The position numbers and the translations under genes were made by a program. A DNA stretch of 64,000 nucleotides, from the IMG/VR virus record IMGVR_UViG_3300009506_000022, positions 1 through 64,000 of that record. One strand, 5' to 3'. Each line of letters starts with the position of its first letter. Within the stretch, counting starts at the first letter, position 1. Below the pieces are notes generated by a model, which was not told where the DNA came from, ran no database searches, and saw only the letters and a program-made list of their open reading frames with translations. Shown piece by piece: positions 51,924 to 61,072 of the stretch. The DNA is from a virus.

Positions 51924-53717
51924 ATGGGAGAAATAACAAAAAACTCGAACTTGCCTCTTCCAGAATCCCCAGAATCTCTAGCGATAAGAAAAAGGAATGT
52001 TAGAGCTGTTTTGATAAATAGCGACATAATCAAAAAAGTTTCTACCGAAATAATAGAAAAACAAGAAGACACCGAAGTTGGAGGAAGCAAACAAGTAGAA
52101 ACCGAGTTTGCAAAGTTGATTTCTTCTGGACAAGCTATTGATCCACCTTTTGATATGTTTGTTTTATCCACTCTTTCTGAGTACAACTCGGAAATGGGAC
52201 CTTGCATCGAGGCAATGAGAACCAACATAGATGGATTCGGTCATCGCTTGGTTTATCGTGGCGATCCAAAAGAGCTTGAAAACGATAAGCCGTTGGCAAA
52301 GAAGGTCTTAGAAGAAAAGGTTAGATTGGAAAACTTCTTCTTGTATGCTGGGCTCGATGATTCGTTTACAAAGATCAGAAAGAAAATGAGAACTGATCTT
52401 GAAAAGACAGGGAATGCGTATTGGGAAGTTGTCCGCTCCATGAAAGGCGAGATTCAGTATTTTGTTCCAATAAAAAGCTATCAAGTTCGACTTACAAAAC
52501 GCGACAAAGAACCAACAGAAGTAAACTTTCCTGTAGTAAAAATAGGACCTGATGGTAAATCGATCAAAAACGATTCGTTCAAAGTAAATACTTATTTCAG
52601 GAGATTTGTTCAGATCACATCGACAACATCTGTTGGCGCAAAAAAAAGTTGGTTCAAACAGTTTGGCGATCCAAGAATAATGGATTGCAAAACTGGGAGT
52701 TATGTTTCTCAAGGCGACTTGGAAAACTTCGAAGATACTGGCAAACCGATGCCAGCAAGTAGAAGGGCAAACGAAGTCGTTCATTGGAAAATGAATGACG
52801 ATCGTTCCCCCTATGGATTGCCTCGATGGATTGGAATATTCCTTGATATTTTGGGAGACAGAAAAGCAAGCGAAATCAACTATATTACTTTTTGTAACAA
52901 TAATATTCCAAGCTTGATTATTGCGGTTTCGAACGGGCAACTAACACAAGATACAGTTGATCGCATCAAAGAGTTTTTCGAGAAAGTTCAAGGTGACGAC
53001 AACCGTTCGAAAGCACTTGTGCTTGAAGCAGAACCATCAGATGAAGATGATGGAGAGGATGCTGGCGCGACCAAGATTGACGTAAAAACGCTAACGGAAG
53101 CGCAACATGATGATGCGATGTTCCAAAACTATAGTCGAGAGAACAGAGAAAAGGTTCGTGTTATCTGGCGCCTTCCTCCTATTTTCACTGGTAGAGCTCA
53201 AGACTATACGAGAACAACGGCTGAAACTTCTAGAGCGTTAGCTGATGAGCAAATTTTCGCACCAGAACGAGACGATTTTGACGATTGGGTAAACCGTATT
53301 TTGTTTCCAAGAATGGGTGTTTTGTATCATCGTTTTCAATCGAACTCTCCAAATACAACTGATAACTCAGAACTTACAAAGATTCTTTCTGGCGCTGAGA
53401 AGACAGGAGGGATTACACCGCGGATCGCGAGAAAGGTTCTCGAGGATATTTTAAGCGTTGAACTTCCACCGTTTCCAGAGGACTTCAACCCAGATATTCC
53501 GTTTAGCCTGACAATGGCTGAAGCGGTAAAAAATATGGGAAACCCAGTTGAGCCAGGACAATCAGTTACAGCTCTAAAGGGGTTAGAGGATGTCGTGAAA
53601 CTAACTGGAACGCCACACCCATTGATTAGTGCATTGATACTTCTTCGAAAGTCGCTTGAAGTCGAATGGTTGAAAGAGGTTTCTGAATCAGAATCAGAAG
53701 AAGAACATGTTGCGTAG
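51924..53717 (+). CDS. portal protein (PBSX-like)
   Basis: DLEKTGNAYWEVVR, FKQFGDPR, ANEV.H, YGLPRW, F.NN.IP, RLPPIF.G, YTRTTA, EQIF.PER. Confidence 0.9.
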   Translation: MGEITKNSNLPLPESPESLAIRKRNVRAVLINSDIIKKVSTEIIEKQEDTEVGGSKQVETEFAKLISSGQAIDPPFDMFVLSTLSEYNSEMGPCIEAMRTNIDGFGHRLVYRGDPKELENDKPLAKKVLEEKVRLENFFLYAGLDDSFTKIRKKMRTDLEKTGNAYWEVVRSMKGEIQYFVPIKSYQVRLTKRDKEPTEVNFPVVKIGPDGKSIKNDSFKVNTYFRRFVQITSTTSVGAKKSWFKQFGDPRIMDCKTGSYVSQGDLENFEDTGKPMPASRRANEVVHWKMNDDRSPYGLPRWIGIFLDILGDRKASEINYITFCNNNIPSLIIAVSNGQLTQDTVDRIKEFFEKVQGDDNRSKALVLEAEPSDEDDGEDAGATKIDVKTLTEAQHDDAMFQNYSRENREKVRVIWRLPPIFTGRAQDYTRTTAETSRALADEQIFAPERDDFDDWVNRILFPRMGVLYHRFQSNSPNTTDNSELTKILSGAEKTGGITPRIARKVLEDILSVELPPFPEDFNPDIPFSLTMAEAVKNMGNPVEPGQSVTALKGLEDVVKLTGTPHPLISALILLRKSLEVEWLKEVSESESEEEHVA

Positions 53718-54819
53718 TCAAACAATACATAGCCATATGCATGATGGCATTTCTGCGATTGACGCTATTATCGGTAAGGCGTTGAAGGTGAGTGAACTTG
53801 CCAGGATTGCGAAGATCGAAACGAATCTTAGAAAGTATATTGGTCGCGAATGGGACTCGTTGGCTTTAGATGCATCGAAACAAGCTGCAAGTGTAATCCG
53901 TTCTGGTTCTGGCGATCCGAATAATGATGATATCAACAGAATGATGGTGAAGATAAATCGCGTAATGAGCGATTGGAACGACAACATAGAGAAGCGATAT
54001 ATAGATGACAACAAAGAGGTTTATGAACTTGCGCATATTGCAGCGATGAAGCGTTCTCTTGGCAAAAACAAGAAGCAATTAGAATACAATACGCCAATAG
54101 GGCCTGAAACGAAGGTAAGCAAAGCAAAAGATATCGTTTATGTTACAGGAGATGATGGCGCGCGAGTTCCTGTTGTTCTTCCCTCATTCAACACAGTTGA
54201 TCTTGCGGCCATTGATGCTTTTGAGGAACATCAAGTTTTTTGGATCGGTCGACATTATAAAGAAAACGTTTCAAACACAGTTGCTGAAACCGCTCGAAAC
54301 ACGATTGTGAAAGCTGGTCTTGGACGCGAAGAAGCTGGAAAGATCGCGCAAAAAGTTGTTCGTGAAACGCTGGATATCGTGAAGGTTCCAGGTGGATTCA
54401 GTGGAACATCAACACAGTATTTCGAAGGCTTGGTTGCGAACGCTGTTACAACACAACGTGTTGCGGCTCAACTCACGAGTTTCGAGCGATTTGGATACAC
54501 AAAACAAACTATTGTAAATCCTCGTGATCAGAGGACGTGTCCTATATGCGATTTGATGGACGGAAAAGTTTTTGATGTTTCTGATGGAAGGCGAACTTTA
54601 GATAGATTGGTCAAAGCGAAGAATCCTACTTCTGTAAAAAAGATTCAGCCATTTATGACAGTTGCGATCGCAAGAGAACTTACTGGTGGTAAACGCGGTC
54701 CTATTGGAGCCAAACAGACTAAAGCTATTGTCGCTAGAGGCAATTCGATTCCCCCATTTCATTTTAAATGTAGGTGCAGTATCGATATAACAGAGGAAGA
54801 AGAAATCATTTCTTTTTGA
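53707..54819 (+). CDS. head morphogenesis protein (SPP1 gp7/MuF family)
   Basis: D.RTCPIC..MDGKVF and PPFHFKCRC motifs; follows portal. Confidence 0.88.
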   Translation: MLRSQTIHSHMHDGISAIDAIIGKALKVSELARIAKIETNLRKYIGREWDSLALDASKQAASVIRSGSGDPNNDDINRMMVKINRVMSDWNDNIEKRYIDDNKEVYELAHIAAMKRSLGKNKKQLEYNTPIGPETKVSKAKDIVYVTGDDGARVPVVLPSFNTVDLAAIDAFEEHQVFWIGRHYKENVSNTVAETARNTIVKAGLGREEAGKIAQKVVRETLDIVKVPGGFSGTSTQYFEGLVANAVTTQRVAAQLTSFERFGYTKQTIVNPRDQRTCPICDLMDGKVFDVSDGRRTLDRLVKAKNPTSVKKIQPFMTVAIARELTGGKRGPIGAKQTKAIVARGNSIPPFHFKCRCSIDITEEEEIISF

Positions 54820-54828
54820 GGAGTCAAT

Positions 54829-57800
54829 ATGAAAAACGAGCTACCAAAATCTGGAATAGTAGTTACCCCATCAAGTATGGCTGTTGCGATTTCCGAAGGT
54901 AGAAAAACTATCTTGGTGAAGACGAGAAGCTACAATATTGCCAACAGAGAAATGTTACTTCTTGATCGCAACAAAGCGTTGGGTGTTGTAAAAATCGGAG
55001 AAGAACAGGTTCTTCAAAACGATAATTTTGGCGAACATGAAGAACAACATCTGATTACAAAAGAGATCAGAAAAGACTGGTCTGAAGCTCAACCATCATG
55101 GGAAGAAGGGCCGTTCTTTCAATGGTCTGTCGAGATGGTTCAGAAATTTGATGAACCAATAAAGACTTATGTTGAGATTGGACCAACAGTTGTTATAGAA
55201 GAAATAAGTGAAATCGATATTGAAAAACGAGGACCTTTTGGACGTTGGGGTAGTTCAGGAATGTATGCTGAATGGCTTATAAAGCAGTTTCCAGAACACA
55301 AGAAGTATGTCGAGCCATTTGCGGGTTCTGCTTCTATTTTCTTTCGAAAGCAACCTTCAGAATCTGAAGTTCTTGCTGACTACGATAGCGAGGTTGTAAA
55401 TGCTCTGAAAACAATTAAAAAGTTGACGGAAGAACAATTTACAGTTCTCGAGTCTAAAGATCGCATCTTGTCCGAAGATAAGTGGAAGGAAATGAGAAGT
55501 AACATTCCTGAAGATTCTTTAGATAGGCTTCATCGAATGTTGTTCTTGAATGGTGGGGGTTGGAGTTCGAGTCTTATAAGCTATAGAATTCATAAAGATG
55601 GAAAGCAATCGTATGACCCGAATAGGCTGAAGCCGTACAAAGAGAGACTGAATAAAGGAAAAGTATCAATAGAATGTGCTGATTGGAAAGCGACGATTAA
55701 TAAACATGATTCAAAAGACACATTTTTCTTTATTGATTGTCCATATCCTGGAGAGTGGAGCAAAAAAGCCGATGATATTCCAAATGACGATCCAAAACGT
55801 GGCGAAAAAGTTCCTCTTGAGGAGTATGGAAAAGTCTTGAAGTCGATCAAGGGAAGTTTCGTTTTTGCGCTTGGTGATCACAAAGAACATCTCAAGTTTT
55901 TGAAATCACTTGAAGGTGTTGAAATAAAAACGTTTAGTGGAACTGAAGCATCAAATAAAGGTGGAACAAAAACAGCAAAGAGATATTTTGCTTTTAAAAC
56001 AGCGGCGTGTGGGAGCAAAAAACCAAAAAAGAAATCGTTTGACGAAGTCGAAACAGATGCAATGGAGTTTATCGATATAACAGAGGACCAACATGTTTTT
56101 GACGGGTTGATCCTAACAACAGAAAAAGAGGTGATTGACTACAGCACTTCTGAGTTAGTTGATATTCATAAATTGCTTCATCAGATATATTCAGAATTAC
56201 CAGATGGTTGGAACACATCTGATGTTGTCAATTTACATTCGATGGTTGTTGATGAGTTGTGCTCAAGAGAAAAAAATCACCCGTCACCTCCAGATAATGG
56301 CCTTGACGATATTTCTTTTGATTTTGAGTGTCTTACATCGAAACAAAAGAAATGGTTTGAAGAAAATTGCGACGAAGTTCCAGAAATTGAAGAGAGCATA
56401 TCTTATCTAGAAAAACGTCGACTTGCTTTATGGGGTTCCACCGCTGGAAAAAGCAGAGTTGCCAAAAGAATTGTGTCGATGATCCCAGAACACAAAACGT
56501 ATGTCGAGCCGTTTGCTGGTGGTGCTGCTGTTTTTTATGCAAAAGAGCCAAGCGAAAAAGAGGTTCTTTGTGATTCAAATCCAGAAGTTACACACGCATT
56601 CAAGTTTGTTCAATCTGCAAGTGATAACGAAATCGAAGCGCTTAAGAAAATGGATTGGACAGTAAGCAAGCCTCGAGCAAAATCGGTTCATGAAATGAAA
56701 CCAAAAGGAAGCGCTGAGAGATTTTTTAGGTTTGCTTATAAGAGATATGCGCTTTTTATGCGAAATGAAAATAGGATTACCGCAATAGATCCAGCAAAAG
56801 AAGGGAAGGCGCCAGATATAGCGAGTAGGATTTCCGAAACAAGAGAGAGACTGAAGAGGGTTTCTATTGTTGAAGGTGGATATGAAAAAGCGGTTAGTAA
56901 GTTTGATTCGCCAGAAACATTCTTTTATTTCGATCCGCCATATCCAAGTTTGGTCCAGGAGGTTGGAGAGAAAAGCTTTGATGAGGAAGCTTTCATCAAA
57001 ACACTGAAAGGCTTGAAGGGAAAGTTTCTTCTCCATTATGAAGCAAAAGCGAAAAAGAAATTTGATGGCGTTGATGGTTGGATTGTAAAAACCATTTCTG
57101 TTGCTCGTACTCCAGGTCATACAAAAGGAGGTAGCGCGCCAGGAAAACTTCTTGAAGTTAGAAATTATGAACTACCCAAAAAGAAGGTGAAGAAAAACGA
57201 TCCGTATTTGATGGCACCAGAAGGAGAGTTCCCTTTTTCAATACAACACCATTGGATTGGAAAATCGATGAACTCAGTTTTGAGAATCGGTGTTGTTCCA
57301 GACAGATGTGCGATCGGTTGGGCGATGAATACTCAACAAACTGAAGTAAGCGAACCAGTAACAACTCTTGCGAAATCTCGAGAGATATCAAAAAACTCAA
57401 GCAATATTTTCAGTGTTGATTGGTCTATTGGTAGATGGAACAAGAAAGGTGAAGAGGAACAACATATAGAGATTCTTTGTAAACGCCAATCTGTTTTTTC
57501 TCCTGTTTGGCTCGACATTGAGGCGAAAACCGCGAATCCAAAAGAAGGTGAACCATTACCTCTTGGCGGGAATCCGAAATATCCAGGTGTTTTCGAGATT
57601 GTAGAAAAAGGGGTAGTTCAGTTTGGCGCTCAAAGCGAAACTCTTCATGAATATTTTCTTTCTGGCACTGGATTCAAAGGAAAAACTATCTTTCGTATGA
57701 TGAAGATCAAAAAATCGATAGATGGTGATTGTCATGTTTGTGGAGTTGACGCAATAGTTGATGTTGGTTGGGCCGATGAACTCCCAGTGAAACTTTGTAA

Positions 57801-58959
57801 AAAATGCTATGACGATTGGCAAAAAAAGGAAGTGATAGAAAAATCATGCATTCCACAGATAGAATATGGTGACGATATTTCGTTCTGGGTTGGAACCAAT
57901 TCGAAAGATGCTGTTCCATTTGTGCTATCCGAAAAAGCGGTGAGTAGCGAGTGGATGCCACCAGATGGCGTTGCCGCTTTACCTAAAGAGATCAAAAAAC
58001 AAATTCCTAAAGAGTACGAATATTGGAATGAAGCTGGTAGTGATGCGAGACAGATGAGAGATCAACTTGTAAAGGCGATTCAAGAAAAAGATATTCCTCC
58101 TTTTGATTTCGAGTCAATCTTCAAATCTGATAGCCAGAAATCTGGATTCGTTTTACAAAAGCAAATCTGGGAAGATAAGAGCGATCCACGCTGGTTCATT
58201 AGAATTGATACAGGCAAACCAGAAATAAACGTAATTGAATTGCAGTCAGACCCAACCAATATTGAAAAAAGTGAAGTCCGAGTTTGGGTAGAGAAATATA
58301 AGTCTTCAATGGATATCGAGGGGTTGTTGTCGGTTGCTCATTATCTAAATCCAAAGAAAGGGATTAGCTCGTATCTGAAGAAGGTTGATGTTGGAAACGC
58401 TTCTGTGTTGTCTGATTCTGAAGAATCTACTCAAATTGAGTTTAAAGGAGATATTCTGGATGGAGTATTTACGTTAAAGCGAAATAATAACGAGTACTTA
58501 TTAGAGAGAAGCGGCAACGACACAATTGCTGAAATAGAGAAAATGATTGATTTTGAACTTGTTTTGCCAATCGATCATTTTGAAATCCACAAAGCAAAAA
58601 AAGGCAAGGAAAAACGGTTAGTTACTGGAATAGTACTTGAACCAGATATGGTTGATGCTCAAGACGACACCATCAAGTCTGAAGTGATCGAAAAAGCAGC
58701 TCATATGTTTCTTACTCAGTACAACAAAGAAACGAAACTTGGTTTGATGCACACAACGTTTGGCGATATCGGATTTGAATTGTGTCAATCCTTTCTCTCT
58801 CCTGTTGAGTACACTGTAGGGAAAAAAACAGTAAAAAAAGGAAGCTGGGTAATGACAGTACATGTCACTGATGATAATAGATGGTATGATATAAAAAATC
58901 GCAGGCTCACTGGATTTAGTATTGGTGGGAAGGCGAGGATGGCGAAGAAGAATGGATAA
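54829..58959 (+). CDS. multidomain prohead-protease polyprotein: ASCH-like + 2x Dam-like adenine MTase + LigD-PE-like + XkdF-type serine protease
   Basis: Two PEHK.YVEPFAG...F blocks with DCPY and DPPY; C-terminal RLVTGIVLEP..VDAQ.D...IEKAAH.F..MH...KGSW....LTGFSIGG. Confidence 0.85.
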   Translation: MKNELPKSGIVVTPSSMAVAISEGRKTILVKTRSYNIANREMLLLDRNKALGVVKIGEEQVLQNDNFGEHEEQHLITKEIRKDWSEAQPSWEEGPFFQWSVEMVQKFDEPIKTYVEIGPTVVIEEISEIDIEKRGPFGRWGSSGMYAEWLIKQFPEHKKYVEPFAGSASIFFRKQPSESEVLADYDSEVVNALKTIKKLTEEQFTVLESKDRILSEDKWKEMRSNIPEDSLDRLHRMLFLNGGGWSSSLISYRIHKDGKQSYDPNRLKPYKERLNKGKVSIECADWKATINKHDSKDTFFFIDCPYPGEWSKKADDIPNDDPKRGEKVPLEEYGKVLKSIKGSFVFALGDHKEHLKFLKSLEGVEIKTFSGTEASNKGGTKTAKRYFAFKTAACGSKKPKKKSFDEVETDAMEFIDITEDQHVFDGLILTTEKEVIDYSTSELVDIHKLLHQIYSELPDGWNTSDVVNLHSMVVDELCSREKNHPSPPDNGLDDISFDFECLTSKQKKWFEENCDEVPEIEESISYLEKRRLALWGSTAGKSRVAKRIVSMIPEHKTYVEPFAGGAAVFYAKEPSEKEVLCDSNPEVTHAFKFVQSASDNEIEALKKMDWTVSKPRAKSVHEMKPKGSAERFFRFAYKRYALFMRNENRITAIDPAKEGKAPDIASRISETRERLKRVSIVEGGYEKAVSKFDSPETFFYFDPPYPSLVQEVGEKSFDEEAFIKTLKGLKGKFLLHYEAKAKKKFDGVDGWIVKTISVARTPGHTKGGSAPGKLLEVRNYELPKKKVKKNDPYLMAPEGEFPFSIQHHWIGKSMNSVLRIGVVPDRCAIGWAMNTQQTEVSEPVTTLAKSREISKNSSNIFSVDWSIGRWNKKGEEEQHIEILCKRQSVFSPVWLDIEAKTANPKEGEPLPLGGNPKYPGVFEIVEKGVVQFGAQSETLHEYFLSGTGFKGKTIFRMMKIKKSIDGDCHVCGVDAIVDVGWADELPVKLCKKCYDDWQKKEVIEKSCIPQIEYGDDISFWVGTNSKDAVPFVLSEKAVSSEWMPPDGVAALPKEIKKQIPKEYEYWNEAGSDARQMRDQLVKAIQEKDIPPFDFESIFKSDSQKSGFVLQKQIWEDKSDPRWFIRIDTGKPEINVIELQSDPTNIEKSEVRVWVEKYKSSMDIEGLLSVAHYLNPKKGISSYLKKVDVGNASVLSDSEESTQIEFKGDILDGVFTLKRNNNEYLLERSGNDTIAEIEKMIDFELVLPIDHFEIHKAKKGKEKRLVTGIVLEPDMVDAQDDTIKSEVIEKAAHMFLTQYNKETKLGLMHTTFGDIGFELCQSFLSPVEYTVGKKTVKKGSWVMTVHVTDDNRWYDIKNRRLTGFSIGGKARMAKKNG

Positions 58960-59803
58960 GCCGCAATCTTCAAAACAAAACCTAAAAGATGCCAACGAGA
59001 TTCTTGAGCTATTCGTAGGCGAGGTTTCGGTGGTAGATAAGCCAGCTAATCTGCGAGATTTTTTGGTAGTCAAAAGAAGAAACAAGGAGGACTCGATGGG
59101 ACAAGCTTTTCAGCAGGATCCTGAGGTCGACAATTTAGAGTTAGTAGAAAAACTAGCTTGGTCAGACCTTGAGAAAGCGGCGCTGCCTGATGATCTAAAG
59201 AAAATGATCGACTCAGCAGTTGCCTGGATGAAAAAAAACGCAAGTGCTGAGAACGCGCCGAAAGAAGCGATTCTTGCTGCTACAGCACTTCTATCAAAGG
59301 TTGCTGGCGGGAAGTTCCCTGGCACAGCACCGAAATCGAAGGATGATGATAAAGACAAGAGCGATGATAGCAAAGATAAGAAAAAGTCTTTGTTGGTTGT
59401 TGGAGATGACGGTTCTTTTGAGATCGGCGGTGAGCCTATCGAAAAAGGGAAATCTCAGTTTACCAAAGAAAGAGTTGACGCTTTGAAAAATGCAATAGCG
59501 CCTTTGATTGGCGTATATGCTCAAGTTGATGAAGCCGGTGCGAAAGAGATGGTTCAAAACCTTGTTGGCGAAACTCTTTCTGGTGAAATAAAGTGGACAG
59601 AAAAGCGTGTTCCAGAACCAACCGATATCGCAGAACAGATCAAGAAGGCAATGGAACCTTTTGCTGAACAAATCAAAGAGGTTGGAAAGCGAGTTGAAGA
59701 CCTCGAGGGTTCTCGCTCAGCTCCACAATCTGATCCTGGTGATGGTGACACCACCGACAAACAAAAAAGTGACAACCCTTGGGATGGCTTGCCGATAGGC
59801 TAG
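58952..59803 (+). CDS. protease C-terminal segment (EVSVVDKPAN) fused to capsid scaffold; internal start at 59096
   Basis: EVSVVDKPAN..FLVVK motif, coiled coil, C-terminal PWDGL; SD AAGGAGG before ATG 59096. Confidence 0.75.
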   Translation: MDKPQSSKQNLKDANEILELFVGEVSVVDKPANLRDFLVVKRRNKEDSMGQAFQQDPEVDNLELVEKLAWSDLEKAALPDDLKKMIDSAVAWMKKNASAENAPKEAILAATALLSKVAGGKFPGTAPKSKDDDKDKSDDSKDKKKSLLVVGDDGSFEIGGEPIEKGKSQFTKERVDALKNAIAPLIGVYAQVDEAGAKEMVQNLVGETLSGEIKWTEKRVPEPTDIAEQIKKAMEPFAEQIKEVGKRVEDLEGSRSAPQSDPGDGDTTDKQKSDNPWDGLPIG

Positions 59804-59860
59804 CTTTGCCGCAGTGGCTTTTTCGCAACCCTTATAGGTTTATTTTATCAGGAGGAAATC

Positions 59861-61072
59861 ATGGGTTTATCAAATGAAGAACTTGCAATGATCCAGAAGG
59901 CTATTACCGCGGCAAACGTCCTAGTTTCTGCAGGAAAGCTAAATCCAGTACAGGCCTCGAAGTTTCTCGATTATGTGATCGACACCACCGTTATGAAGAA
60001 CAATGTTCGTATTGTTCGTTTTCGTAACGAGAAGATGGAGATCAATAAACTCGATATCGGGAATCGAGTTATGTTTCCTGGAACCGAGTATCAAGCTCCA
60101 CAAGAGCGTCAAGGGGTTACATCTTCCAAGCTCGAGCTTCAACCGAAAGAGGTTGTTTGTGCTTTCGATATCACCGACACCTTCAAGAATCAAAATATCG
60201 AAGGTGATAACGCCGCTGATCACATCATGCGGATGTTTGCAACGGGTTGGGGAAACAACATGGAAGAGACAGCGATCAACGGTGATGTCGTTGGTCCAGC
60301 TGGTCTTGAAAATGATGTGTGGGGGTCTGGCTCAACCACACAATACGTCCTTGATTCTTTGCTGGCTTTATTTGACGGTTGGTGGCGTAAAGCAGATGGC
60401 GCTCATCTCGTTAATATGAATGGTGCAAATGTTGGAATCAGTGTTTTTCGGAAGATGTTGACTGCAATGCCAGCCAAGTTCAAAAAGCAACGGCGTAATC
60501 TTCGATGGCTTGTTTCCGATGAGTTGGCGGATGTGTATATCGAAAAGGTTTCAACACGCCAAACAGCGAAGGGTGATCGTGCGGCTGAAGGCGAGGAACA
60601 ATCTCCTCTTGGAATCCCCATGGTGAGAATCCCGGGATTGCCTTTTAACCCAAAGATCGTTCAACATGTCGCGCTTCCGAACGACACCGCAGTAGCTTTA
60701 CGCTACAAACCGATTGTTTCTGCTTCAGAGGTAGTGACACCAAGCACGTTGGATCGAACTCCAGTGACTCCATATGTTGAGGGAACCGCCTATGATATGG
60801 ATTACGTCAATGGGACGATCACAAATCCAAGTGGTGACGCAACTATCGGTGATGGCGATACTGTCAAGATCACTTACGAAGCGGCTCCTCAAATCATTCT
60901 AACCCATTGGCAGAACTTCATTCTTGCTTTTGGGATGGATGATCTCAAAGTCGAGAGACAACGCAATATCCACAAGCGCGCTGATGAGTATGTTATGAGT
61001 GGTCGGTTTGACCAACTGATTGAAAACCTCGATGCTTGCGTCAAGGGATACAATCTAGGGGATAGTCTATAG
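59861..61072 (+). CDS. major capsid protein (HK97 fold) with inserted beta domain
   Basis: AGKLNP.QA..FLD, NIEG, E...INGD, DGW, MP.KFK; strong SD AGGAGG; follows scaffold. Confidence 0.9.
   Translation: MGLSNEELAMIQKAITAANVLVSAGKLNPVQASKFLDYVIDTTVMKNNVRIVRFRNEKMEINKLDIGNRVMFPGTEYQAPQERQGVTSSKLELQPKEVVCAFDITDTFKNQNIEGDNAADHIMRMFATGWGNNMEETAINGDVVGPAGLENDVWGSGSTTQYVLDSLLALFDGWWRKADGAHLVNMNGANVGISVFRKMLTAMPAKFKKQRRNLRWLVSDELADVYIEKVSTRQTAKGDRAAEGEEQSPLGIPMVRIPGLPFNPKIVQHVALPNDTAVALRYKPIVSASEVVTPSTLDRTPVTPYVEGTAYDMDYVNGTITNPSGDATIGDGDTVKITYEAAPQIILTHWQNFILAFGMDDLKVERQRNIHKRADEYVMSGRFDQLIENLDACVKGYNLGDSL

What the first reader, a model, noticed from the sequence alone, without database searches (positions are those of the whole stretch)
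55219..59902. Recurring [ILV]-x-K motif at every cargo boundary and at scaffold and capsid N-termini: predicted maturation cleavage code
Seen: both MTase domains start immediately after the same motif (DIEK|RGPF at 55228; YLEK|RRLA at 56416). Similar motifs sit in later linkers (KVKK|ND, KIKK|SI, VIEK|SC, IFK|SD, EIEK|MI, EIHK|AK just before the protease). They also occur in the scaffold (LVEK|LA, DLEK|AA, PIEK|GK), capsid N-terminus (MIQK|AIT, 59891-59902), MuF (IIGK|AL, KVSK|AK) and portal (IIEK|QE). Established: HK97-family head proteases cleave after Lys in short motifs. Inference: the polyprotein is cut into free enzymes by its own protease domain.
Basis: inference. Interest (0 to 1): 0.8.

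Follow-up and report, generated by a model that had tools for sequence, protein, structure and literature searches.

The report
Lysine cut-site code in virus head
A short motif (Val/Ile/Leu, any residue, Lys, then usually Ala/Gly/Ser) is conserved at matching places in the capsid, scaffold, MuF and protease-cargo proteins of this uncultured virus and its relatives, so it is probably where the virus's own head protease cuts, but no cut has been measured and the loose motif as first written is too common to mean much.

Summary
All motif strings sit at the stated coordinates. As written, though, [ILV]-x-K occurs 44 times in the 1376-aa polyprotein. It is not enriched in that protein's own AlphaFold-defined linkers (8 of 44, 6.1 expected). 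One cargo linker (391-436) lacks it, and the portal site is not conserved.

Comparative data rescue a sharper form: P3 V/I/L, P1 K, P1' mostly A/G/S.
- It is near-invariant amid variable flanks at capsid K13|A14, across 133 loci and about 150 cluster representatives.
- MuF K24|A and K139|A carry it.
- Five or six scaffold columns carry it.
- So does the start of the XkdF protease domain. In this subclade the site is re-created four residues downstream, as EIHK1255|A.
- Control proteins lack it.
- Capsid leaders upstream of the site range from 3 to about 216 residues; the longest are scaffold-capsid fusions.
- Tryptic mass spectrometry of the related Bacillus phage 0105phi7-2 did not detect the residues before its IIEK|A.

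Sites between cargo domains (K133|R, K529|R and others) are weaker, but Lys precedes 15 of 16 methylase domains in relatives.

Verdict: a probable protease cut-site code, a Lys variant of the T4 and HK97 precedents, and unproven. Whether the cargo is cut into free enzymes is less certain. This scan has noted the same motif on other DNA.

The parts
53707..54819 (+). MuF-like minor head protein (370 aa)
   Evidence: Pfam Phage_Mu_F 31.9 bits, cutoff 29.6
53770..53778 (+). MuF candidate cut site I-G-K24|A
   Evidence: In MuF relatives K in 31/41, P3 V/I/L in 37/41, P1' Ala in 27
54115..54123 (+). MuF candidate cut site V-S-K139|A
   Evidence: K in 32 of 33 occupied rows, P3 V/I in 31, P1' Ala in 28
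54829..58959 (+). 1376-aa cargo-protease polyprotein
   Evidence: One ORF. Pfam D12 methylase twice and Peptidase_S78_2. In relatives the protease ORF ranges from 137 to 2226 aa, with the protease always at the C-terminus.
54829..55197 (+). N-terminal ASCH/PUA-like domain (res 1-123)
   Evidence: AlphaFold2 model; Foldseek 2dp9, TM 0.71 on the target
55219..55227 (+). Candidate site I-E-K133|R in linker 123-141
   Evidence: pLDDT below 50. Lys directly precedes 15 of 16 methylase domains in relatives, with P3 V/I/L in about 12. Matrix score 5.9.
55228..56004 (+). Dam-type (D12) methylase domain 1 (res 134-392)
   Evidence: Pfam PF02086; Foldseek E. coli Dam, E 1e-12
56119..56127 (+). T-E-K433|E, the only Lys site in linker 391-436; does not fit [ILV]-x-K
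   Evidence: Relatives have x-x-K|R/A/S before the same helical module.
56137..56358 (+). Helical module of unknown function (res 437-510), a mobile unit in relatives
   Evidence: Homology-block edges; helices in the model
56407..56415 (+). Candidate site L-E-K529|R in linker 480-537
   Evidence: pLDDT below 50 over 505-530; conserved in L084; Lys before methylase domains; matrix score 3.5
56416..57183 (+). Dam-type methylase domain 2 (res 530-785)
   Evidence: Pfam PF02086, best stretch 540-727
57184..57195 (+). K-V-K788-K789|N before the phosphoesterase domain
   Evidence: K column in 22/27 relatives. It may belong to the domain's own K-x-x-D-P-Y start. pLDDT is low over 781-788.
57199..57714 (+). 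LigD 3'-phosphoesterase-like domain (res 791-962)
   Evidence: Foldseek 3n9d E 5.7e-6, 3p4h TM 0.83 on the target
57721..57831 (+). CxxC...CxxC zinc-ribbon-like insert (res 965-1001)
   Evidence: Sequence; present in only part of the relatives
57835..57843 (+). Candidate site I-E-K1005|S in linker 1001-1017
   Evidence: pLDDT 63. Relatives have [V/L]-x-K| before a conserved (V)LPPSE stretch. Relatives with linkers of 24 aa or more usually carry a site; those with linkers of 10 aa or fewer do not.
58117..58140 (+). I-F-K1099|S and S-Q-K1104|S, in the loop between two sub-domains
   Evidence: K columns in 18/27 and 20/27. Relatives read V-x-K|A-S at the second column; the window's copy is degenerate.
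58585..58593 (+). Best candidate site in the polyprotein: I-H-K1255|A, 8 residues before the first confident protease strand
   Evidence: Top matrix score, 10.4. Low-confidence stretch 1231-1260. All 6 members of the subclade with this insert have E-[IVL]-x-K here. Most have lost the family's usual P-I-x-K|A/V/S four residues upstream.
58594..58956 (+). XkdF-type prohead serine protease domain (res 1256-1376); His1308 and Ser1364 invariant
   Evidence: Pfam PF14550 91.6 bits, cutoff 24; invariant columns H528 and S584 of A2
58952..59803 (+). Scaffold protein. Its start ATG overlaps the polyprotein stop (ATGGATAA). It begins with the EVSVVDKPAN strand.
   Evidence: Met column conserved in 49/50, strand conserved in 66/67 scaffolds. 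PHROG 3017 C-terminal part.
59066..59074 (+). Scaffold V-V-K41|R (K51 of the TTG-started ORF), at the end of the protease-like strand
   Evidence: K 65/66, P3 V/I 63/66
59144..59176 (+). Scaffold V-E-K67|L and L-E-K75|A
   Evidence: K in 53/62 and 51/66; P3 V/I/L in 52/62 and 34/66; P1' Ala/Gly in 50/66 at the second site
59438..59446 (+). Scaffold I-E-K165|G
   Evidence: K 66/67, P3 V/I/L 63/67, P1' A/G/S 67/67, flanks variable
59759..59767 (+). Scaffold K-Q-K272|S before the C-terminal W-D-G-L-P tail
   Evidence: K 65/67; relatives read V-x-K|S-F-W-x-G-V-L
59861..61072 (+). Major capsid protein (XkdG-like, HK97 fold family)
   Evidence: PHROG 1623, E 1.9e-66; phage records name the homologs major capsid protein or XkdG
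59891..59899 (+). Capsid candidate cut site I-Q-K13|A14
   Evidence: K 98%, P3 V/I/L 95%, P1' Ala in 120 of 133 capsids. Kept across cluster representatives down to about 25% identity, with leaders of 3 to about 216 aa.

Best explanation
The XkdF-type serine protease at the C-terminus of the polyprotein probably recognises an extended stretch with Val/Ile/Leu at P3 and Lys at P1, and cuts after the Lys. P1' is mostly Ala, Gly or Ser; Arg, Asn or Thr seem tolerated.

Inside the procapsid it would do the following:
- remove a 13-residue leader from the capsid protein (K13|A14);
- cut MuF at K24|A and K139|A;
- dismantle the scaffold at K75|A and K165|G, and probably at K41|R, K67|L and K272|S; the last cut would detach the scaffold from its C-terminal W-x-G tail;
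- free itself from the cargo at K1255|A.

Weaker Lys sites sit in the cargo linkers: K133|R, K433|E, K529|R, K788/789 and K1005|S. They may separate the ASCH-like domain, the two Dam methylases, the helical module and the LigD-phosphoesterase-like part.

Shown here: the motif, its conservation, its position in predicted linkers, and the intact His/Ser of the protease. Inferred: that it is a cut site, which protease cuts it, and that the cargo is packaged.
For: 1. The same P3/P1/P1' pattern stands out against variable P2, P4-P6 and P2'-P4' in unrelated proteins: capsid K13, MuF K24 and K139, scaffold K51, K77, K85, K175, column 263 and K282 (ORF numbering), and a 230-aa protein encoded 8 kb downstream.

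2. Specificity. Conserved Lys columns with P3 V/I/L number 6 of 11 in MuF plus scaffold, but 1 of 16 in terminase, portal and small neighbouring proteins. The same test for Arg, Glu and Asp columns gives about 18%.

3. Leaders before the capsid site vary from 3 to about 216 residues while x-x-K|A-x-[IV]-T stays. Three relatives with a scaffold fused to the capsid keep L-S-K|A/T exactly at the junction. HK97 removes its fused scaffold domain after K103 (plus my own knowledge).

4. Distant cultured phages with an XkdF protease have the same capsid start: IIEK|A, IIQK|A, KVNK|A and LLEK|V. In Bacillus phage 0105phi7-2, tryptic mass spectrometry gave many spectra for peptide 12-38 and none for residues 1-10. 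The authors infer loss of about 10 residues (PMC10219371).

5. The family-wide P-I-x-K|A/V/S precedes the protease domain in about 100 relatives. In the window's subclade that Lys is mostly lost and an E-[IVL]-x-K is gained four residues downstream.

6. A matrix trained only on the non-polyprotein sites ranks K1255 first in the polyprotein. In 48 non-redundant polyproteins it finds 186 sites of score 7 or more, against 58 +/- 6 in shuffles. Such sites are 1.7 to 2.6 times enriched just before homology-block starts. With plain patterns, [ILV].K gives 118 against 81.6 expected, and controls stay near 1.

7. Lys precedes 15 of 16 methylase domains at a variable distance of 3-11 residues from the W-x-G-x-x-G-K anchor.

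8. His1308 and Ser1364 are invariant.
Against: - No cleavage has been measured in this lineage.
- The one proteomic hint used trypsin, which also cuts after Lys. The missing tryptic peptides would be only 5-6 residues long and could be missed anyway.
- In this window the loose motif is not enriched in linkers (8 against 6.1 expected).
- Several equally conserved [ILV]-x-K sites lie inside folded domains (K927, K1289, capsid K63 and K372). The pattern is therefore also an ordinary beta-strand feature.
- Some 'boundary' lysines may belong to the domains themselves. K-x-x-D-P-Y of the phosphoesterase domain resembles the start I recall for LigD phosphoesterases. P-I-x-K lies inside the Pfam XkdF model.
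- The capsid leader is conserved as far as P7 (N-E-E-L). HK97 gp5 starts with a very similar S-E-L-A-L-I-Q-K-A-I. The stretch may therefore have an assembly role whether or not it is cut.
- The enrichment tests count related sequences, so their z-scores are inflated.
Confidence: 0.6

Rival explanations
1. The code is real for capsid, MuF, scaffold and the cargo-protease junction, but the cargo itself is not cut. After release at K1255 the ASCH-like domain, both methylases, the helical module and the phosphoesterase-like part stay together as one roughly 1250-residue multi-domain protein. That protein is packaged and delivered whole.
For: The inter-cargo sites score low on the matrix trained on the other head proteins (K133 5.9, K529 3.5, K1005 6.3, against K1255 10.4). 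Their P1' is Arg, not Ala/Gly/Ser. Linker 391-436 has no V/I/L-x-K. In this window the motif is not enriched in linkers. Some phage polyvalent proteins are packaged uncut, such as the N4 virion RNA polymerase (PMC5512222).
Against: Lys precedes 15 of 16 methylase domains in relatives, and 8 of these read [ILV]-E-K, far above background. Scaffold K51|R shows that Arg at P1' goes with an otherwise canonical, near-invariant site. High-scoring sites are enriched before homology-block starts even when the protease boundary is left out.
Confidence: 0.3
2. There is no cleavage code. The hydrophobic-x-Lys pattern reflects Lys/Glu-rich composition and amphipathic strands. Its conservation reflects ordinary structural constraints at domain starts.
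For: There are 44 instances in one protein, and no linker enrichment in the window (8 against 6.1). Conserved in-domain lysines also have V/I/L at P3. P-I-x-K is part of the Pfam protease model. K-x-x-D-P-Y may be intrinsic to the phosphoesterase domain.
Against: The same three positions are conserved amid variable flanks in five unrelated families, but not in terminase, portal or tail-side proteins. Small residues are preferred at P1'. Leader length before the capsid site varies from 3 to about 216 aa. The lost Lys is re-created four residues downstream in the window's subclade. The motif shows a seven-fold excess in scaffolds and a three-fold excess in polyproteins over shuffles, although the scaffold figure is partly circular, because four scaffold columns were used for training.
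Confidence: 0.15
3. The conserved K-A stretches are docking or targeting elements, for example the capsid N-arm helix that binds the scaffold tail, or a capsid-targeting peptide. They are not scissile bonds. Alternatively they are cut by a host enzyme, as in Staphylococcus phage 80alpha.
For: The capsid leader is conserved well beyond P4 (N-E-E-L). HK97 gp5 begins with a near-identical stretch at the start of its scaffold domain. Scaffold and the downstream 230-aa protein share a C-terminal W-x-G tail, which looks like a binding tag. That 80alpha capsid and scaffold leaders are removed by a host protease is from my own knowledge; the 14-residue leader is cited in PMC10219371.
Against: A docking role does not explain the same tripeptide occurring many times along the scaffold, twice in MuF and in cargo linkers. 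It also does not explain leaders of about 200 residues fused in front of the capsid site. The lineage carries its own protease with an intact His/Ser.
Confidence: 0.15

Closest known systems
Phage T4 prohead protease gp21 with its L/I-x-E sites in gp23, gp24, scaffold gp22, internal proteins and Alt (from my own knowledge; reviewed in PMC9026906, listed but not read here)
   Same: One short motif with a hydrophobic P3 and a charged P1 is shared by the capsid, scaffold and packaged cargo proteins. The head protease trims leaders, destroys the scaffold and releases the cargo inside the procapsid.
   Different: P1 is Lys instead of Glu. The protease belongs to a different family (XkdF, Pfam PF14550, not S77). 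Here the cargo is fused directly to the protease rather than carrying a separate N-terminal targeting peptide. Nothing has been shown experimentally.
HK97 gp4 protease (S78) cutting capsid protein gp5 after K103
   Same: It cuts after Lys with a small P1' (T-F-N-K|S). Relatives of this virus with scaffold fused to capsid keep L-S-K|A at the equivalent junction. An E-V-S-x-V-x-x-P-A-N strand is present.
   Different: This virus has a separate scaffold gene and a capsid leader of only 13 residues. P3 here is V/I/L, whereas HK97 has Phe at that site. The protease strand is encoded on the scaffold gene.
Phage-type polyvalent proteins (Iyer et al. 2017, PMC5512222)
   Same: A large multi-domain protein sits next to MuF in the head module. 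It carries DNA methylases and other nucleic-acid enzymes, is presumed to be packaged and delivered, and carries a peptidase domain proposed to process it.
   Different: The processing peptidase described there is a zincin-like metallopeptidase. Here it is the virus's own prohead serine protease, and the proposed cut sites are those used for head maturation.
Bacillus phage 0105phi7-2 gp5/gp6 (PMC10219371)
   Same: It has a homologous capsid (about 32% identity over 254 aa) and an XkdF protease fused to a scaffold-like tail. Its capsid starts M-T-L-N-N-K-T-I-I-E-K|A, and residues 1-10 were not detected in virions.
   Different: It has no cargo on the protease. The authors did not propose a motif, and could not place the cut because trypsin was used.
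Giant phages phiKZ and SPN3US: head protease cutting many ejection proteins (PMC10052503, PMC5694885; listed but not read here)
   Same: Many packaged proteins are processed at one short motif.
   Different: That motif ends in Glu (from my own knowledge), and the protease is T4-like.

Membership tests
XkdF-type prohead serine protease (Pfam PF14550, Peptidase_S78_2) | Profile match above the curated cutoff | tested here: met
   91.6 bits against cutoff 24, residues 1253-1370
XkdF-type prohead serine protease (Pfam PF14550, Peptidase_S78_2) | Conserved His and Ser of the catalytic dyad | tested here: met
   His1308 and Ser1364 (G-F-S-I-G-G) are invariant in 24 aligned relatives. That they are the catalytic residues is inferred.
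XkdF-type prohead serine protease (Pfam PF14550, Peptidase_S78_2) | Gene lies between portal/MuF and scaffold/capsid | tested here: met
   the same order holds in relatives
XkdF-type prohead serine protease (Pfam PF14550, Peptidase_S78_2) | Proteolytic activity on head proteins | not testable with these tools
   Needs expression and assay
Head-maturation cut-site code (T4 gp21 / HK97 gp4 type) | One short motif shared by several head proteins | tested here: met
   Capsid, MuF, scaffold, polyprotein and the downstream 230-aa protein
Head-maturation cut-site code (T4 gp21 / HK97 gp4 type) | Motif conserved in homologs while its flanks vary, and absent from proteins outside the head interior | tested here: met
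   6 of 11 conserved Lys columns in MuF plus scaffold, against 1 of 16 in terminase, portal and small proteins; logos
Head-maturation cut-site code (T4 gp21 / HK97 gp4 type) | Sites lie at leader or domain junctions that are accessible | tested here: inconclusive
   K133, K529, K1005 and K1255 lie in low-confidence linkers. In the window, however, linkers are not enriched for the loose motif. Across 48 polyproteins the enrichment is 1.7 to 2.6 times.
Head-maturation cut-site code (T4 gp21 / HK97 gp4 type) | Mature proteins start right after the motif | not testable with these tools
   The only data are an indirect tryptic mass-spectrometry result for a distant relative
Phage-type polyvalent protein (Iyer et al. 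2017) | Several unrelated effector domains in one polypeptide in a virion-gene context near MuF | tested here: met
   ASCH-like domain, two Dam methylases, LigD-phosphoesterase-like domain and protease; MuF lies directly upstream
Phage-type polyvalent protein (Iyer et al. 2017) | Zincin-like metallopeptidase as the processing domain | tested here: not met
   No such Pfam or PHROG match; the peptidase is XkdF-type
D12 N6-adenine DNA methyltransferase | Pfam match and Dam fold | tested here: met
   PF02086 105.7 bits, two stretches; Foldseek E. coli Dam, E 1e-12
LigD 3'-phosphoesterase domain | Fold match to solved phosphoesterase domains | tested here: met
   3n9d E 5.7e-6, 3p4h TM 0.83 on the target. 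Catalytic residues were not checked.

The most novel reading that the evidence does not exclude
V/I/L-x-K|A would be the general address-and-release code of a very large, mostly uncultured group of tailed viruses with XkdF protease and XkdG-type capsid, some found on contigs binned with Asgard archaea. Under this reading, any protein fused in front of the head protease, or carrying the scaffold's C-terminal W-x-G tail, is loaded into the procapsid. It is then cut free at these sites. That would explain why the protease gene ranges from 137 to 2226 codons among relatives and why the cargo turns over so fast.
Probability: 0.35. Interest if true: 0.7.

Novelty: new variant of a known kind. Interest (0 to 1): 0.55.

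Why it matters
If the code holds, it gives three things.
- It gives a simple rule for predicting mature virion proteins and packaged cargo in thousands of uncultured phage and archaeal-virus genomes that carry an XkdF-type protease.
- It explains how enzymes such as Dam methylases and DNA-end-processing domains could be delivered ready-made with the genome.
- It offers a compact tag-and-release system for loading foreign proteins into capsids.

It also flags a practical trap. Trypsin-based virion proteomics cannot see these cuts, because trypsin also cuts after Lys.

Tried and rejected
Related loci came from the search for related loci instead.
- Complex prediction on the protease domain plus capsid residues 1-45 gave no verdict (score 0.01). 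It is not used as evidence either way.
- Literature searches for a known XkdF or XkdG cleavage specificity found nothing usable.
- The papers on ChaoS9, phiH1, HFTV1, P1 and Felix O1 held no N-terminal data for this capsid family. The 1994 N-terminal sequence of phiH HP32, cited in PMC6210493, is not in the library. HP32 reads I-T-E-K16|N-A-L at the aligned place.
- The portal site IIEK46 is rejected: conserved in 1 of 50 relatives.
- A programmed frameshift joining protease and scaffold was considered. It is unlikely, because the scaffold's ATG is conserved in 49 of 50 relatives and overlaps the stop codon.
- The window-only linker test for the loose motif was not significant (8 of 44 against 6.1 expected).
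I could not check whether the invariant acidic residues E1271, D1276 and D1280 line an S1 pocket.

Full report
**What is there**

The window carries a head module on the + strand:
- portal (51924-53717);
- a MuF-like protein (53707-54819);
- a 1376-aa polyprotein (54829-58959);
- scaffold (ATG 58952-59803, overlapping the polyprotein stop as ATGGATAA);
- an XkdG-like major capsid protein (59861-61072).

The polyprotein holds two D12 Dam-type methylases and a C-terminal XkdF-type prohead protease (Pfam PF14550, 91.6 bits).

AlphaFold2 models of residues 1-800 and 781-1376 were built on alignments of relatives. Foldseek searches with them add three parts:
- an ASCH/PUA-like N-terminal domain;
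- a LigD 3'-phosphoesterase-like domain (791-962);
- a zinc-ribbon-like insert (965-1001).

Low-confidence stretches and the edges of homology blocks define the linkers at 123-141, 391-436, 480-537, 779-790, 1001-1017, about 1096-1105, and 1231-1260.

**The observation**

All quoted strings are present at the stated places. The loose motif [ILV]-x-K occurs 44 times in the polyprotein. That is above composition (30.3 +/- 4.6 in shuffles). Only 8 of the 44 fall in the 14% of residues that are linkers (6.1 expected), so within this window 'a motif at every boundary' is what chance gives. One linker (391-436) has no such motif. [ILV]-E-K does better: 8 observed against 2.9 expected, with 4 in linkers against 1.1 expected.

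**Relatives**

The capsid has 114 word-indexed homologs and 916 cluster representatives at E up to 0.001. I fetched 163 related loci from viral and metagenome collections. In these loci the protease gene ranges from a stand-alone 137 aa to 2226 aa. The protease is always at the C-terminus, and the cargo in front of it varies widely.

**A sharper motif**

In alignments of relatives, a few Lys columns have V/I/L two residues before and mostly Ala/Gly/Ser after. The other neighbouring positions vary.

| Site | Lys | P3 | P1' |
|---|---|---|---|
| Capsid K13 | 98% | V/I/L 95% | Ala in 120 of 133 |
| MuF K24 | 31/41 | V/I/L 37/41 | Ala 27 |
| MuF K139 | 32/33 | V/I 31/33 | Ala 28 |
| Scaffold K175 (K165 from the ATG) | 66/67 | V/I/L 63/67 | A/G/S 67/67 |

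Further scaffold columns show the same pattern: K51 (F-L-V-V-K|R), K77, K85 (K|A), column 263 (I-E-K|T/A/S, lost in the window) and K282 (V-x-K|S-F-W-x-G-V-L at the C-terminus).

The portal site does not (1 of 50).

As a control, conserved Lys columns with P3 V/I/L number 6 of 11 in MuF plus scaffold, but 1 of 16 in terminase, portal and small neighbouring proteins. For conserved Arg, Glu and Asp columns the rate is about 18%.

**Leaders and fusions**

Before the capsid site the leader varies from 3 residues to about 45. In three relatives (P0257, P0262, P0263) it is about 208-216 residues, and these residues look like a fused scaffold. They include the protease-like P-A-N strand and several V/I/L-x-K sites. 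The junction still reads L-S-K|A/T-A/T-[IV]-T.

This is the HK97 arrangement. HK97 gp5 reads T-F-N-K103|S104, and its fused scaffold domain is removed there (my own knowledge).

Distant cultured phages with an XkdF protease keep the capsid site:
- 0105phi7-2: I-I-E-K|A
- SIO-2: I-I-Q-K|A
- Clo-PEP-1: V-N-K|A
- BillNye: L-E-K|V

For 0105phi7-2, tryptic mass spectrometry gave many spectra for peptide 12-38 and none for residues 1-10 (PMC10219371). This fits a cut after K11 but does not prove it. Trypsin cuts there too, and the missing peptides are short.

**The protease junction**

About 100 relatives read f-V-P-I-x-K|A/V/S-D/N just before the first protease strand. The window's subclade has mostly lost that Lys (P-I-D-H-F). 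It has gained an insert reading E-[IVL]-x-K four residues on, which is E-I-H-K1255|A in the window. A matrix trained only on capsid, MuF, scaffold and the downstream protein ranks K1255 first among the 152 lysines of the polyprotein (10.4). K1255 lies in the low-confidence stretch 1231-1260.

**The cargo junctions**

Lys directly precedes 15 of 16 methylase domains in different polyprotein contexts. P3 is V/I/L in about 12 of these, and 8 read [ILV]-E-K. The distance to the methylase's W-x-G-x-x-G-K anchor varies from 3 to 11 residues.

Lys also precedes three other modules:
- the helical module;
- the phosphoesterase domain (K column in 22/27, though this may be the domain's own start);
- a conserved (V)LPPSE stretch after that domain.

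Over 48 non-redundant polyproteins, sites of score 7 or more number 186 against 58 +/- 6 in shuffles. They are 1.7 to 2.6 times enriched in the 17 residues ending at homology-block starts. Plain [ILV].K gives 118 against 81.6 expected, with controls near 1. Related sequences are counted here, so the significance is overstated.

In the window the inter-cargo sites have Arg at P1' and modest scores (K133 5.9, K529 3.5). Equally conserved V/I/L-x-K sites also sit inside folded domains (K927, K1289).

**A further protein**

Outside the window, G000:C1:69173-69865 encodes a 230-aa protein. It starts M-M-E-E-Y-I-Y-I-Q-K|A, has P-V-Q-K109|A before its second half, and ends Q-L-W-D-G-L-P-V like the scaffold. 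Its relatives keep V-V-V-H-K|A after leaders of variable length, and end in K|S-F-W-x-G-V-L, the same tail as the scaffolds. Its second half also occurs inside some polyproteins, again right after a Lys.

**Reading**

The most economical explanation is that V/I/L-x-K followed by a small residue is the recognition and cut site of the XkdF-type protease. This would be a Lys counterpart of T4's L/I-x-E. It would be used to trim the capsid leader, cut MuF, dismantle the scaffold and release the protease from its cargo. Cuts between cargo domains are plausible but less well supported. Nothing here shows a cut.

I found no paper that states this specificity for XkdF proteases. The library is limited, so this does not show that none exists. 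Earlier notes of this scan describe the same hydrophobic-x-Lys motif in other uncultured phages. They are AI notes and do not count as independent evidence.

Noticed in passing
window 58952-59074: The scaffold gene starts inside the polyprotein's stop (ATGGATAA). It opens with the E-V-S-V-V-D-K-P-A-N...F-L-V-V-K strand that ends HK97-type proteases. The strand is conserved in 66 of 67 scaffolds, and the start Met in 49 of 50. The protease fold therefore seems to be completed in trans by the scaffold. In BillNye the strand follows the protease in one protein; in 0105phi7-2 and Clo-PEP-1 it precedes it.
   Followed up: partly
G000:C1:69173-69865 (same contig, 5.2 kb beyond the window end): A 230-aa protein between neck genes shares the scaffold's C-terminal W-D-G-L-P tail and has I-Q-K|A at residue 10 and V-Q-K|A at residue 109. 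Relatives keep both the N-terminal V-x-K|A and the C-terminal K|S-F-W-x-G-V-L. It is a candidate packaged internal protein with a capsid-binding tag.
   Followed up: partly
L169:1029-1400 (HK97 gp5) compared with window 59861-59910: HK97 gp5 begins M-S-E-L-A-L-I-Q-K-A-I-E-E. That is almost the same as this capsid's N-E-E-L-A-M-I-Q-K-A-I-T-A, although in HK97 it heads the 103-residue scaffold domain. Whether this is shared ancestry or convergence is unexplained.
   Followed up: no
proteins P0257, P0262, P0263: Three relatives of 521-530 aa have a scaffold-like N-terminal half, including the P-A-N strand, fused to the capsid protein. This is an HK97-like layout within the XkdG-type capsid family.
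   Followed up: partly
related loci L005-L163: The protease gene of relatives ranges from 137 to 2226 codons. Its N-terminal cargo swaps freely: methylases, phosphoesterase-like domains, the helical module, and even portal-protease fusions in L043, L044, L063 and L080.
   Followed up: partly
window 57721-57831: A CxxC...CxxC zinc-ribbon-like insert (res 965-1001) sits between the phosphoesterase-like domain and the next module. It is present in only part of the relatives.
   Followed up: no
capsid homologs P0054 and P0115: Two capsid homologs are named by NCBI as proteins of Candidatus Thorarchaeota metagenome bins from marine sediment. The host of this 98-kb contig could be an Asgard archaeon, or the bins may hold stray viral contigs.
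   Followed up: no
window 1-64000: GC skew is positive in every 2-kb window, and the genes examined here all lie on the + strand. The contig is 98,006 bases.
   Followed up: no
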